64,000 nt of DNA from Promethearchaeota archaeon (GTDB taxonomy: Archaea; Asgardarchaeota; Lokiarchaeia; Sigyniarchaeales; SOKP01), in contig JAHPZA010000004.1 of NCBI GenBank assembly GCA_019058445.1, positions 96,001-160,000 of the forward strand. The letters run 5' to 3'. Below, piece after piece: positions 2,716 to 64,000 of the stretch; positions within the stretch are counted from its first letter, which is position 1; each line of letters begins with the position of its first letter. Under the pieces are notes generated by a model. It saw only the letters and a program-made list of their open reading frames with translations. It was not told the DNA's origin and did no database searches. The position numbers and the translations under genes are program-made.

Positions 2716-2727
2716 CTTACCTCACAT

Positions 2728-2860
2728 GGGAGGGTGGTCTAGCTTGGTATGATACATAATTTGTCGTTCAGCCAAATTAGGCGAATCGGCTGGGGCAGTC
2801 AAAGCTTTTGCTTGGATTACAGAAGCCGAGTGGCCGGGGGTTCAATTCCCCCCTCTCCCA
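2728..2860 (+). tRNA. tRNA-Pro(GGG) with two introns (2756-2785 at position 27/28; 2796-2824 at 37/38)
   Basis: Acceptor GGGAGGG/CTCTCCC plus A73; D-arm GTCTAGCTTGGTATGAT; anticodon stem CTCGG/CCGAG forms only after removing 2756-2785; loop CT-GGG-G; T-arm GGGGG-TTCAATT-CCCCC; both introns contain hairpins with BHB-like bulges; CCA not encoded. Confidence 0.88.
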
Positions 2861-2866
2861 TTTTAA

Positions 2867-61742: not shown

Positions 61743-63186
61743 GTGAACTACTACTACCTAAAGGTAGTAGCTTCCTACGAGTCCGCACCTACTTTTGCAG
61801 TTGGCTTGACTGTATGTCGTAGAAAACCATTCCACTTTTGAAGGAATAGTTCCTCGTCCACAGAGGATTCATGTGATAGGAAATCATATTCGCCTAATTC
61901 TTTTGCTTTCAAGAATTTGACCATGATATTGACCGCTGAATTCAAGTCTCGGTCAATCTGATTCCCACAATCGCACCTAATAAATCTTTCGTAGATAGCT
62001 CTCTTTGAGAGCTTTCCACACTTACAACAGGCTTTCGTCGTCTTATCCTCACCAATTCTTATTACTCTTTTACCTAACTTTTCAGCTTTATAGGTCAAGA
62101 ATTCGGCAAATCGCGACATGAAACCCGCATTATAAACAGAGTGATTAAGTGTCTTTTTTGCTTTGGTCTTCTTAGCGTTTCCCGTTCCCTTCTTTTTCTT
62201 AGCCATTTATTTTACGGATAATTTTCCGATGATAATGGTATTTGCTTTGGTGTTCTCAACAACCTGCTTGGATAACCAATGTTGGTAATCTTTTAGCTGG
62301 GTTGTTTGTTTTCGCTTCATTTTTATTAGTTTGCTATTGTACCAATGCCATTTCTTACTCTTTTTCTTGCAGTGATCTCGTTTGGATTGCACTTGTTCAA
62401 GCTTTTTTTTCCAATAGAGATCTGCTCTTCTATGTCTGAATGAAATAAATTTACCATGAAGGTTTACTCCTGCTGTTTGAGAAATGCCTAAATCTAAAGC
62501 TTGATAAAGACCGTTATCTTTATATTTTGGCGGAAAAATTTCGTAGGTAATGGAAATGAACCAGCGCTTAAGTGAATCTAAAAATATTTCCACTTGCTTT
62601 ATAGTTTCTTTTGGAATAAGCTCTTTCGGTAATCCAAACGATAATACTTCTTTAGAGGGATGCTTATGAGAAAAATTGATAGTAGAATTTTCTATTATGA
62701 ATCCTGATTGATTGTAACTTAATGTTGTGAAGTATTTTTTGCTTTTGAAACGTGGCGATCTTGCTTTTTTATCTCCATTTTTCCAAAGAGCTGTAAATGA
62801 TTTATAGTTTGCATCAAGCTTCTTTAAGATCATTTGGAGTACTTTTGAATATACCCATTTATATTCCGGATATTTTTCTTTGATAACCGGTAATTGGTTT
62901 TGCTGATGGGTATAATTAATGAATTTTCGTTCTATCTTGGGTTTTTTCTTATTCTTTTTCCAATTTTCAATCCGTTCTGCTAACGCAAAATTATAAATAA
63001 GGCGACATTTTTCTGACAAATCCCACAATACTTTAACTTGTGAATCTGTTGGAAAAATTGGTAATTTTTGCGTTAGGTTCATAGTATGTTAGAATAATCT
63101 AATCGAAATCTATAAAAACGAGAGTTCGATGGTTTAATGAATTTTTAATTGACCACCCCCTAAAGAGGAGTGGCCTTCTTTTCTAT
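61743..63186 (-). mobile_element. IS200/IS605-family, tnpB-only (IS1341-type) element
   Basis: Right end on minus strand GGAAGCTACTACCTTTAGGTAGTAGTAGTTCAC (hairpin then TCAC); left-end hairpin GGCCACTCCTCTTTAGGGGGTGGTC at 63151-63175; left boundary approximate; no tnpA. Confidence 0.85.
61775..63082 (-). pseudogene. tnpB: TnpB split by one in-frame TAA (62207-62209)
   Basis: HTH N-terminus (IFPT..Q...CRLIYN.AL), RuvC-I ALDLG, Zn finger CCKCG..CDCG, RuvC-III DRDLNSAVNI; the two ORFs are contiguous and in frame. Confidence 0.9.
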
Positions 63187-63279
63187 GTTAAAAAACTAAT
63201 TTTATAATCTTAAATAAAACAGACTATTATAATTTGTATAAAATTTAAATTAAATATCAAAAAATTGGAGTAAATTAAA

Positions 63280-64000
63280 ATGAAGAAACCTATTGCTATT
63301 CTTGGTGGTGGAAATTCAATTTAACTATAAATTGAACCACATACGGCGGTCACCAAATGGCTTTAGATTTAACTTTAAGGGGATTTGACGTAAACTTTTG
63401 TGAGCATCCTGATTTTAAAGAGTCATTTAGAAACACACTTGAAACAAAAGTAATTGAAAATACAGGAATGATTGAAGATAAGGCTAAGATTCATAAGTTG
63501 ACATTAGACTTTAAAGAGGCATTGGAAGATGTTGATATTATTTACCTTGTTATTCCTGCTATTGCCCATGAAACGTTTTTTGATAATATTATCCCGCATC
63601 TTAGAGATGGGCAATTAGTCGTTATTTGGGCGGGTGATGCGGGAGCGCTCCGACTTGCCAAAAGATTAAGAGAAGAGGCACCGAATAAGAAGATAAGTAT
63701 CGCAGAAACTAATACTTTACCTTATGGAACTAGGCTTATTGGTCCTTCTAAAGTTGATCTGTTTGTTACAGCAAAAAAGATGTTATTTTCCACTTTTCCT
63801 GCGAATGAGACGGAAGAGAAACTAGAACTTGTTAAAGATACTTTTCCTGTTTTAGAACCTATTGATAATATTTTATCAGTATCATTTAGTAATCCTAATC
63901 CTACTGTCCATCCTCCCGGTACTCTATTAAACATCGGACGGATTCAGTGGTCGAAAGGTGATTTCTATCTATATCGGGAAGGAATAACAGAGGCTCCATC
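63280..64000 (+). CDS. NAD/NADP octopine/nopaline dehydrogenase family protein, interrupted by a 29-nt candidate intron; 3' end off window
   Basis: Spliced: MKKPIAILGGGNGGHQMALDLTLRGFDV...IPAIAH...AETNTLPYGTR...NPNPTVHPPGTLLNIGRI...FYLYREGIT; GGAG upstream; open to the edge. Confidence 0.88.
63314..63342 (+). other. Candidate bulge-helix-bulge mRNA intron (29 nt)
   Basis: GTGG(63308-11)/CCAC(63337-40) 4-bp helix; bulges AAA(63312-14) and ATA(63341-43); perfect 9-bp stem TTCAATTTA-acta-TAAATTGAA. Confidence 0.85.

What the first reader, a model, noticed from the sequence alone, without database searches (positions are those of the whole stretch)
63280..63360. Candidate BHB (tRNA-endonuclease-type) intron inside a protein-coding gene
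Seen: the ORF starts MKKPIAILGGG and hits TAA at 63322, while the rest of an undamaged opine-dehydrogenase-family gene resumes in another frame. The insert folds as a BHB: 4-bp central helix GTGG/CCAC, two 3-nt bulges on opposite strands (AAA, ATA) and a perfect 9-bp intron stem with a 4-nt loop. The exon-exon outer helix is weak (G-C, U-G). Cutting after the second nt of each bulge removes 63314-63342 and joins GGA-A|AC-GGC-GGT, giving LGGGNGG, an intact Rossmann GxGxxG in frame. Established: archaeal EndA cuts BHB motifs at these positions and RtcB ligates; the well-documented mRNA case is the crenarchaeal cbf5 intron. Inference: a probable Asgard archaeon splices a metabolic mRNA with its tRNA machinery. 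The 29-nt size matches the tRNA introns in this window (29 and 30 nt). Gene callers would start at ATG 63357, drop the NAD-binding motif and miss this.
Basis: partly seen in the sequence, partly recalled or inferred. Interest (0 to 1): 0.96.

Follow-up and report, generated by a model that had tools for sequence, protein, structure and literature searches.

The report
tRNA-type mini-intron in Asgard enzyme gene
A 29-base hairpin insert shaped like an archaeal tRNA intron splits the cofactor-binding motif of an opine-dehydrogenase-family gene in an Asgard (Loki-type) archaeon, and comparison with relatives shows the gene is kept working, so its messenger RNA is very probably cut and rejoined by the tRNA-splicing enzymes, something published for hardly any archaeal protein gene.

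Summary
A 29-nt insert (63314-63342) splits the GxGxxG motif of an otherwise intact opine-dehydrogenase-family gene. Cutting at the canonical bulge-helix-bulge (BHB) positions gives MKKPIAILGGGNGGHQMALDL, matching intron-less orthologs.

The insert is real DNA: contigs from four sediment samples carry it. Eleven ortholog loci lack exactly these bases. Eight other metagenome contigs carry an insert at the same site:
- a 29-nt relative;
- a 31-nt type in three sequence variants.

All five distinct sequences obey the same cut rule. Shared pairs are 92.7% paired, against 31-46% when slid, and five pairs change on both sides. Coding sequence is under strong purifying selection in intron-bearing alleles too (dN/dS 0.02-0.08), so a pseudogene reading does not fit.

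The same genome holds similar 30-32-nt inserts in EF-2, a CO-dehydrogenase-like gene, a Sir2 gene and others. It encodes EndA and RtcB.

No RNA data exist, so splicing is inferred, not shown.

New here: exon 1 plus intron of this allele match a distant allele (33/35 nt) better than its closest relative (22/35), which suggests lateral transfer of the intron.

This scan has found tRNA-type mRNA introns before in other Asgard genomes. I found no published report beyond crenarchaeal cbf5.

The parts
63267..63270 (+). Shine-Dalgarno-like GGAG 9 nt upstream of the exon-1 start codon
   Evidence: Read from the sequence. The intron-bearing orthologs also have GGAGG- or AGAGG-like sites upstream of their exon-1 start.
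63280..63313 (+). Exon 1: ATG plus 10 codons and the first base of the Asn codon (MKKPIAILGGG + A)
   Evidence: It is conserved as MxKPIAILGGG in orthologs with and without the insert.
63306..63307 (+). 5' strand of the weak 2-bp outer helix; it pairs with 63344-63345
   Evidence: The pairs are kept in all five intron variants through one-sided changes: UG/CG and GC/GU.
63308..63311 (+). Central 4-bp helix, 5' strand GUGG (exon)
   Evidence: It is invariant in all intron-bearing alleles and variable in intron-less ones.
63312..63314 (+). 5' bulge AAA; predicted cut between 63313 and 63314
   Evidence: The cut position follows the canonical BHB rule (established knowledge; see also bioRxiv 10.64898/2026.10.13.758758).
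63314..63342 (+). 29-nt intron; register 63315-63343 gives the same product
   Evidence: Exactly this stretch is missing in 11 ortholog loci. It is present in contigs from four samples.
63315..63336 (+). Inner hairpin: 9-bp stem 63315-23 with 63328-36, loop ACTA 63324-27
   Evidence: The stem is identical in the P0009 allele while the loop has 3 changes.
63337..63340 (+). Central helix, 3' strand CCAC (intron)
   Evidence: It is CCAU in P0009 (G-U kept) and CCAA in the 31-nt type (3 pairs plus a G.A mismatch).
63341..63343 (+). 3' bulge AUA; predicted cut between 63342 and 63343
63343..64000 (+). Exon 2 (AC GGC GGT CAC CAA ATG ...); it runs past the window end to G000:C4:160397 (stop included)
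   Evidence: Pfam Octopine_DH scores 7.7e-37. PDB 1BG6 aligns from its residue 61 to residue 44 of the ORF that starts at ATG 63357, so that ORF alone lacks about 17 N-terminal residues.
63357..63359 (+). Internal ATG that gene callers take as the start, dropping the NAD(P)-binding motif
   Evidence: Public protein P0009 (346 aa) from the ortholog with the same insert starts here.

Best explanation
The 29 nt at 63314-63342 are a bulge-helix-bulge (BHB) intron in the pre-mRNA of a working opine-dehydrogenase-family gene. The proposed mechanism has four steps.

1. The transcript folds. Exon bases GUGG pair with intron bases CCAC. A 3-nt bulge follows each strand of this 4-bp helix. A 9-bp intron hairpin stacks on one side and a weak exon-exon helix on the other.
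2. The splicing endonuclease EndA (gene at G000:C9:770313-770918) cuts after the second base of each bulge.
3. The RtcB ligase (G000:C1:114713-116020) joins GGA-A to AC-GGC. This restores ILGGGNGGHQ, the Rossmann GxGxxG motif.
4. The 29-mer is probably released as a circle.

Shown here: the anatomy, the reality of the insert in DNA, its exact absence or presence in orthologs, conservation of pairing, purifying selection on the interrupted gene, sister introns in other genes of this genome, and the presence of both enzymes.

Inferred: the cleavage and ligation themselves.

This allele most likely gained exon 1 plus intron by recombination with a distantly related intron-bearing allele.
For: 1. 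Exact in-frame repair. Excision gives MKKPIAILGGGNGGHQMALDL. Eleven ortholog loci align with a clean 29-nt gap at this spot.

2. Real DNA. Independently assembled contigs from four samples cover 63086-63570 without gaps. Three of them carry a nearby SNP (63105 G>T), so they are not copies of the window assembly. All four samples come from one study.

3. The same site is occupied in other lineages. P0009 (83% aa identity) has a 29-nt relative. The P0017 and P0021 clusters have 31-nt inserts, found on 8 further contigs from JGI, ENA and Logan. The same cut rule restores ILGGGNG[GA]HQMA in all of them.

4. Structure is conserved.
- Of 55 cells, 92.7% are paired, against 31-46% with the partner slid.
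- Five pairs change on both sides.
- 0 of 500 shuffles reach the observed covariation.
- C-to-U changes in P0129 keep G-U pairs.

5. The gene is alive. dN/dS values are:
- 0.024 for G000 vs P0009;
- 0.048 for P0017 vs P0021;
- 0.044 for G000 vs its nearest intron-less relative;
- 0.059 between two intron-less genes.
Exon 1 and its ribosome-binding site are kept in all intron-bearing lineages.

6. Genome context.
- Strict BHB motifs that fuse two coding-like frames number 18, against 6-8 in frame-shifted controls.
- Pfam domains run on across the predicted junctions: Prismane 190-457|458-512, SIR2 58-103|108-180, GTP_EFTU 2-33|48-187.
- EF-2 carries a 30-nt insert with an in-frame TAG in its GTPase domain just upstream of the conserved EEQERGITI motif. 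Homologous inserts sit in 2 of the 29 relatives' EF-2 loci inspected. One shows an A-U to U-A swap and a 6-nt shift of site.

7. Enzymes. EndA scores 68 bits and RtcB 574 bits. The EndA has a short Lys-bearing loop where crenarchaeal enzymes have the loop tied to broad specificity. Asgard EndA is reported as (alpha-beta)2 with that loop (PMC5829648).
Against: - No RNA evidence: no spliced junction or circular intron has been seen.
- The outer helix is only 2 bp, so this is a relaxed motif, not a strict one.
- In the 31-nt type the central helix has a G.A mismatch, and the MFE folds of four of the five variants do not show the full BHB.
- No EndA beta subunit was found in this 92.6%-complete genome, so broad substrate specificity is not established here.
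- A looser motif census showed no excess over controls, so the number of such introns in the genome is not established.
- Only five distinct intron sequences of two types exist, and kin are not independent.
Confidence: 0.85

Rival explanations
1. The insert is a recent disabling insertion. The gene is a young pseudogene, or only an N-truncated and probably inactive protein is made from ATG 63357.
For: - The unspliced reading frame stops at 63322.
- The closest relatives (94-85% aa identity) lack the insert, so in this lineage it could be recent.
- A degenerate TnpB element lies just upstream.
- No RNA data exist.
Against: - Inserts at the same site persist in four separate places on the gene tree.
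- The ORFs are intact and dN/dS is 0.02-0.08, even where dS is saturated.
- Exon 1, its start codon and its SD are retained in all intron-bearing alleles.
- Pairing is conserved with compensatory changes.
- The insert has no other copy in the genome.
- EF-2, a core translation factor, carries the same kind of insert.
Confidence: 0.05
2. The insert is removed at the RNA level, but not by EndA and RtcB. Another nuclease and ligase pair, or an unknown ribozyme-like activity, recognises the hairpin.
For: - Comparative data show only that the 29 or 31 nt must be ignored. They do not show which enzyme does it.
- The outer helix is weak.
- No beta subunit was found.
Against: - The conserved features are exactly those of the BHB: 4-bp helix, 3-nt bulges on opposite strands, and cut sites after the second bulge base. 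They are present in every variant.
- 29 nt is too small for a group I or group II intron.
- EndA and RtcB are present.
Confidence: 0.06
3. The insert is skipped during translation. Ribosomes bypass the 29 nt, as in phage T4 gene 60, helped by the hairpin just after a GGA codon.
For: - A stable hairpin starts 3 nt after GGA 63310-12.
- A stop follows within four codons. This loosely resembles the gene 60 gap.
Against: - No matching landing codon lies 29 nt downstream: 63339-41 is ACA and 63342-44 is TAC.
- The conserved CCAN complement to the exon and the paired bulges have no role in bypassing.
- In EF-2 and the other genes the inserts differ in their flanking codons but share the BHB shape.
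Confidence: 0.02
4. The insert is an assembly or sequencing artefact.
For: None found. Hairpins can cause local misassembly in principle.
Against: - Logan contigs of four runs contain it without gaps, and three carry a distinguishing SNP.
- Homologous inserts occur in unrelated assemblies from JGI, ENA and Logan.
Confidence: 0.01

Closest known systems
BHB intron in the cbf5 pre-mRNA of Crenarchaeota (Desulfurococcales, Sulfolobales; PMC2738675)
   Same: - A short intron in a protein-coding gene, bounded by an often relaxed BHB motif.
- Removed by the tRNA splicing endonuclease of a lineage with hetero-oligomeric, broad-specificity EndA.
- Patchy gain and loss among relatives.
   Different: - The host is Asgard (Loki-type), not Crenarchaeota.
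- The gene is a metabolic dehydrogenase, not an RNA-modification enzyme.
- The intron lies 34 nt into the ORF, inside the GxGxxG motif.
- It is one of several such introns in the genome.
- Splicing is shown experimentally for cbf5 but not here.
Non-canonical BHB introns of archaeal tRNA genes, very frequent in some Asgard lineages (bioRxiv 10.64898/2026.10.13.758758)
   Same: - The same motif geometry, with half of the motif supplied by exon sequence.
- Repeated gains on terminal branches.
- A small, hairpin-dominated intron.
   Different: - The exon context is an mRNA without any tRNA body.
- The outcome is judged by reading frame, not by a cloverleaf.
- That census did not cover protein genes.
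IRE1/RtcB splicing of HAC1/XBP1 mRNA in eukaryotes
   Same: - Spliceosome-independent removal of a short mRNA intron.
- An endonuclease cuts at paired stem-loops and an RtcB-type ligase rejoins.
- The splice changes the reading frame.
   Different: - The endonuclease (IRE1) is unrelated to EndA and the recognition motif differs.
- It is a regulated stress response. Nothing here shows regulation.
Translational bypass in phage T4 gene 60
   Same: A short non-coding gap with a hairpin and an early stop inside an otherwise intact ORF.
   Different: - It needs matched take-off and landing codons, which are absent here.
- The gap stays in the mRNA.

Membership tests
Archaeal BHB (EndA-dependent) intron | Two 3-nt bulges on opposite strands, each 3' of its strand of a 4-bp central helix | tested here: met
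   GUGG/CCAC with bulges AAA and AUA. The geometry is the same in all five variants. In the 31-nt type the central helix has 3 pairs plus a G.A mismatch.
Archaeal BHB (EndA-dependent) intron | Inner helix (h') stacked directly on the central helix | tested here: met
   A perfect 9-bp stem lies flush with CCAC. Its five basal pairs covary between the two intron types.
Archaeal BHB (EndA-dependent) intron | Outer exon-exon helix (h) closing the 3' bulge, as required for the strict hBHBh' form | tested here: inconclusive
   Only 2 pairs form (G-C, U-G), and they are kept in all variants. The MFE prefers a 5-bp helix with a 10-nt loop. The motif qualifies only as relaxed, which published work ties to hetero-oligomeric EndA (PMC2738675, PMC5829648).
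Archaeal BHB (EndA-dependent) intron | Cuts after the second bulge base give a functional product | tested here: met
   The product equals the intron-less ortholog sequence, in frame, in all five variants.
Archaeal BHB (EndA-dependent) intron | The host encodes the splicing endonuclease and an RtcB ligase | tested here: met
   PF01974 scores 68 bits at C9:770595-770843. PF01139 scores 574 bits at C1:114713-116020.
Archaeal BHB (EndA-dependent) intron | An endonuclease of the broad-specificity kind: (alpha-beta)2 with the L1/crenarchaeal loop | tested here: inconclusive
   The alpha subunit has a 5-residue insert relative to M. jannaschii EndA. The insert carries a Lys that aligns with the loop Lys region of the A. 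pernix and S. tokodaii enzymes. No beta paralogue was found.
Archaeal BHB (EndA-dependent) intron | A spliced junction and a released (circular) intron are observed in RNA | not testable with these tools
   No RNA run holds the locus.
Opine dehydrogenase family (PF02317; CENDH 1BG6) | C-terminal octopine-DH helical domain plus an N-terminal Rossmann domain with GxGxxG | tested here: met
   Octopine_DH scores 7.7e-37 and 1BG6 scores 2.6e-42. The GxGxxG motif exists only in the spliced reading. The substrate was not tested.
T4 gene 60-type translational bypass | Matching take-off and landing codons flanking the gap | tested here: not met
   No GGA or AAU/AAC codon lies 29 nt downstream in register.

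The most novel reading that the evidence does not exclude
This intron belongs to a mobile population of about 30-nt micro-introns. They colonise protein-coding genes of Loki-type Asgard archaea wherever the exon can supply half of a BHB. They move between alleles by recombination that drags flanking exon sequence along, a homing-like co-conversion. On this view these archaea routinely splice mRNAs, including that of EF-2, with the tRNA machinery. Protein-gene introns and their gain and loss would then be an ongoing process in the closest prokaryotic relatives of eukaryotes.
Probability: 0.45. Interest if true: 0.88.

Novelty: new member of a known kind. Interest (0 to 1): 0.74.

Why it matters
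- **Published record.** Published work documents endonuclease-spliced introns inside archaeal protein-coding regions essentially only for crenarchaeal cbf5. My full-text searches found no report for Asgard protein genes.
- **What this locus adds.** An ordinary metabolic gene of an Asgard archaeon needs such splicing to make its cofactor-binding motif. The same genome has sister introns in EF-2 and other genes.
- **Evolutionary relevance.** If RNA data confirm it, the closest prokaryotic relatives of eukaryotes carry and exchange introns in protein genes. This bears on how interrupted genes were tolerated before the spliceosome.
- **Annotation.** Gene callers truncate or split these genes. Public entries start at MALDL or translate intron sequence as VETSSAMSGDAK.
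- **Intron gain.** The mosaic exon 1 plus intron gives a concrete, testable case of intron gain by lateral recombination.

Tried and rejected
- **RNA evidence.** No RNA holder is listed for this locus, so expression and splicing could not be examined. The DNA contigs show no insert-less joint.
- **Repeat or MITE idea.** The insert and its hairpin have no other copy in the 4.6-Mb genome (blastn-short and a 4-mismatch search).
- **tRNA comparison.** ARAGORN without the intron option and Rfam find no tRNA in the window. With introns allowed, ARAGORN calls one 135-nt gene at 2727-2861 with a doubtful 39-nt intron. Rfam at a loose threshold and a double-excision search gave nothing clear. The '29 and 30 nt tRNA introns' therefore stay unverified.
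- **Genome census.** Loose BHB criteria with ORF-fusion and coding-score filters gave no excess over frame-shifted controls, because operon junctions and antisense frames swamp the signal. Only strict motifs showed an excess.
- **Isolated in-frame stops.** I looked at these as a sign of recoding. They were mostly antisense frames.
- **EndA beta subunit.** Not found by Pfam at E<=10 or by tblastn.
- **Monophyly of the two 29-nt alleles.** The constrained tree is 10.85 log-likelihood units worse, but the AU test does not reject it (p = 0.10). Lateral transfer therefore rests on the exon-1 mosaic, not on the tree.
- **Database scans.** Metagenome and genome scans with the protein returned only intron-less loci.

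Full report
**What is in the sequence**

- The window is G000:C4:96001-160000 of a 4.6-Mb, 10-contig genome. Its near relatives are MAGs labelled Promethearchaeota or Hermodarchaeota.
- At 63280 an ORF with a GGAG nine bases upstream reads MKKPIAILGGGNSI and stops at TAA 63322.
- From ATG 63357 a 346-codon ORF runs past the window end. It hits Pfam Octopine_DH at 7.7e-37.
- It aligns to the solved N-(1-D-carboxyethyl)-L-norvaline dehydrogenase 1BG6 from that chain's residue 61 onward. The ORF therefore lacks about 17 N-terminal residues, which is the Rossmann GxGxxG turn.
- Between the two pieces, GUGG (63308-11) is complementary to CCAC (63337-40). AAA (63312-14) and AUA (63341-43) are left unpaired. 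A perfect 9-bp stem with loop ACUA fills 63315-63336.
- The outer exon-exon helix is only G-C and U-G.
- The minimum-energy fold contains the central helix, the AAA bulge and the stem (z = -2.5).
- Removing 63314-63342 gives MKKPIAILGGGNGGHQMALDL.

**Is it real, and is it more than chance?**

- Contigs assembled separately from four sediment samples of one study cover the insert without gaps. Three of them differ from the window at 63105, so they are not copies of the same assembly.
- The insert has no second copy in the genome.
- A BHB-like shape alone is not rare. My scanner finds 953 motifs of equal quality on both strands over all lengths, but only 8 at length 29.
- The significant point is that the motif's cut sites coincide with an ortholog-defined gap. 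With the hairpin kept and everything else randomised, 1.06% of trials do this.

**Orthologs without the insert**

- Four species-representative genomes have orthologs at 91, 86, 85 and 75% identity. Seven metagenome loci have orthologs at 94-77% identity.
- All read ...GG(N)GG(N)GG(N)AAY GGN GGN CAY CAR ATG... with exactly the 29 nt missing.

**Orthologs with an insert at the same site**

- Public protein P0009 (83% identity) begins at MALDL, as a gene caller would make it.
- Its two contigs carry a 29-nt insert with the same 9-bp stem and a changed loop. CCAC has become CCAU, which keeps a G-U pair.
- Two further clusters (P0017 and P0021, 12 proteins from JGI, ENA, Logan and NCBI MAGs) begin with odd peptides such as VETSSAMSGDAK-NGAHQ. 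These peptides are intron sequence translated in the exon-2 frame.
- Their seven contigs carry 31-nt inserts at the same position.
- In all five distinct sequences, cutting after the second base of each bulge restores ILGGGNG[GA]HQMA.
- On the aligned shared pairs, 92.7% of cells are paired, against 31-46% when the partner is slid.
  - All five basal pairs of the inner stem change on both sides between the types.
  - No shuffle of 500 reaches the observed covariation.
- Caveats: there are only five sequences of two types. The 31-nt type has a G.A mismatch in the central helix. Unconstrained folds of four of the five variants prefer competing structures.

**The interrupted gene is under selection**

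- Pairwise dN/dS is 0.024 for G000 vs P0009, with synonymous sites saturated.
- It is 0.048 for P0017 vs P0021 and 0.044 for G000 vs its nearest intron-less relative.
- It is 0.059 between two intron-less genes.
- Exon 1, its start codon and its ribosome-binding site survive in all four intron-bearing lineages.
- This excludes a decaying pseudogene. The insert must be ignored when the protein is made.

**Distribution and a sign of lateral transfer**

- On the protein tree the intron-bearing alleles sit in four separate places.
- G000 nests among intron-less sequences next to L038.
- Yet G000's exon 1 is 33/35 identical to that of P0009 and only 22/35 identical to that of L038. Exon 2 shows the reverse pattern: 76% vs 88.9%.
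- Together with the near-identical intron, this mosaic suggests that exon 1 plus intron entered this allele by recombination with a P0009-like allele.
- The AU test does not reject a G000+P0009 clade outright (p = 0.10). I hold this as likely, not shown.

**Context in the same genome**

- Strict BHB motifs that fuse two coding-like open frames number 18, against 6-8 in frame-shifted controls. Looser criteria are swamped by operon junctions.
- Individual cases are convincing:
  - EF-2 (C10:684116-684145) has a 30-nt insert with an in-frame TAG in its GTPase domain, just upstream of the conserved EEQERGITI motif. Its architecture is the same as here.
  - A CO-dehydrogenase/prismane gene, a Sir2 gene, a flavin-reductase-like gene and a YGR210-type GTPase are also interrupted.
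- Pfam models run on across the predicted junctions: 457|458 for Prismane, 103|108 for SIR2, and 33|48 for GTP_EFTU.
- Of the 29 relatives' EF-2 loci I inspected (27 readable at this motif), two more carry a homologous EF-2 insert. One is at the same site. The other is shifted by 6 nt onto a repeated CAGAU and shows an A-U to U-A swap in the stem. The other readable loci lack it.
- A 35%-identical EF-2 paralogue exists, but it also occurs in genomes without the intron.

**Machinery**

- The genome encodes RtcB and one EndA catalytic subunit.
- That subunit carries a short Lys-bearing insert at the place of the crenarchaeal loop linked to relaxed-motif cleavage.
- I found no beta subunit.
- The literature reports (alpha-beta)2 EndA with this loop across Asgard (PMC5829648). 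It links relaxed motifs in cbf5 to hetero-oligomeric EndA (PMC2738675).

**Rivals**

- A pseudogene is contradicted by the selection data.
- An artefact is contradicted by four samples and by foreign assemblies.
- Translational bypass lacks a landing codon and does not explain the conserved exon-intron complementarity.
- Removal by some other enzyme cannot be excluded without biochemistry.

**Verdict**

- The best explanation is an EndA/RtcB-spliced mRNA intron (confidence 0.85). Splicing itself is inferred, because no RNA run holds the locus.
- It is a new member of the kind defined by the cbf5 intron.
- Follow-up agents of this scan reached the same conclusion for other genes in other Asgard genomes. 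I did not check those.
- The parts specific to this locus are recurrent occupation of one site by two intron types and the exon-1/intron mosaic.

Noticed in passing
G000:C10:684116-684145 (minus strand; locus L052 2217-2246): The canonical aEF-2 gene carries a 30-nt BHB-shaped insert with an in-frame TAG between ...QLQMTD and SDDEEQERGITI. Homologous inserts occur in G021 (same site) and G006 (shifted 6 nt). The other inspected relatives that could be read at this motif lack it.
   Followed up: yes
G000: C6(-) around 396839; C9(-) around 775898; C10(+) around 5852; C6(+) around 1272331; C6(-) around 165908: Further 30-32-nt BHB-shaped inserts split a prismane/CO-dehydrogenase gene, a Sir2 gene, a flavin-reductase-like gene, the P-loop of a YGR210-type GTPase and an OYE-like gene. 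For the first four, Pfam matches on the two exons are contiguous or compatible across the predicted junction.
   Followed up: partly
L079 (G013) and L080 (G012), EF-2 loci of related genomes: In these two genomes the EF-2 reading frame is broken further upstream, just before HGKTT of the G1 motif. This suggests another intron position in the same gene.
   Followed up: no
window 61775-63082 (minus strand): An IS605 OrfB/TnpB-like gene (HTH_OrfB_IS605, OrfB_IS605 and Cas12f1-like TNB domains) is split by an in-frame TAA at 62207-62209, followed directly by ATG. It reads IIIGKLSVK where TnpB usually has the RuvC (I/V)EDL motif. It is probably degenerate or unusual.
   Followed up: partly
window 2727-2861: A 135-nt tRNA-like gene has a clear acceptor stem and T arm but about 60 extra bases. 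Rfam misses it and ARAGORN forces it into a doubtful tRNA-Leu with a 39-nt intron. It probably has two non-canonical introns.
   Followed up: partly
G000 whole genome: ARAGORN with introns allowed finds only 23 tRNA genes in 4.6 Mb, several with odd calls. One is a tRNA-Pyl(cta) at C9:655982-656074 and one a tRNA-SeC at C1:27020-27126. Both are unverified. Most tRNA genes are probably hidden by non-canonical introns.
   Followed up: no
window 63280-63342 compared with L035 427-488: Exon 1 plus intron of this allele are nearly identical to a distant allele (33/35 nt in exon 1, 24/29 in the intron) although synonymous sites elsewhere in the gene are saturated. The closest relative by exon 2 shares only 22/35 nt in exon 1.
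   Followed up: yes
G000:C10:652107-652775: A partial second copy of the EF-2 C-terminus (residues 528-750, 97.8% identical) lies about 30 kb from the main gene. It may be a duplication, a strain variant or an assembly redundancy.
   Followed up: no
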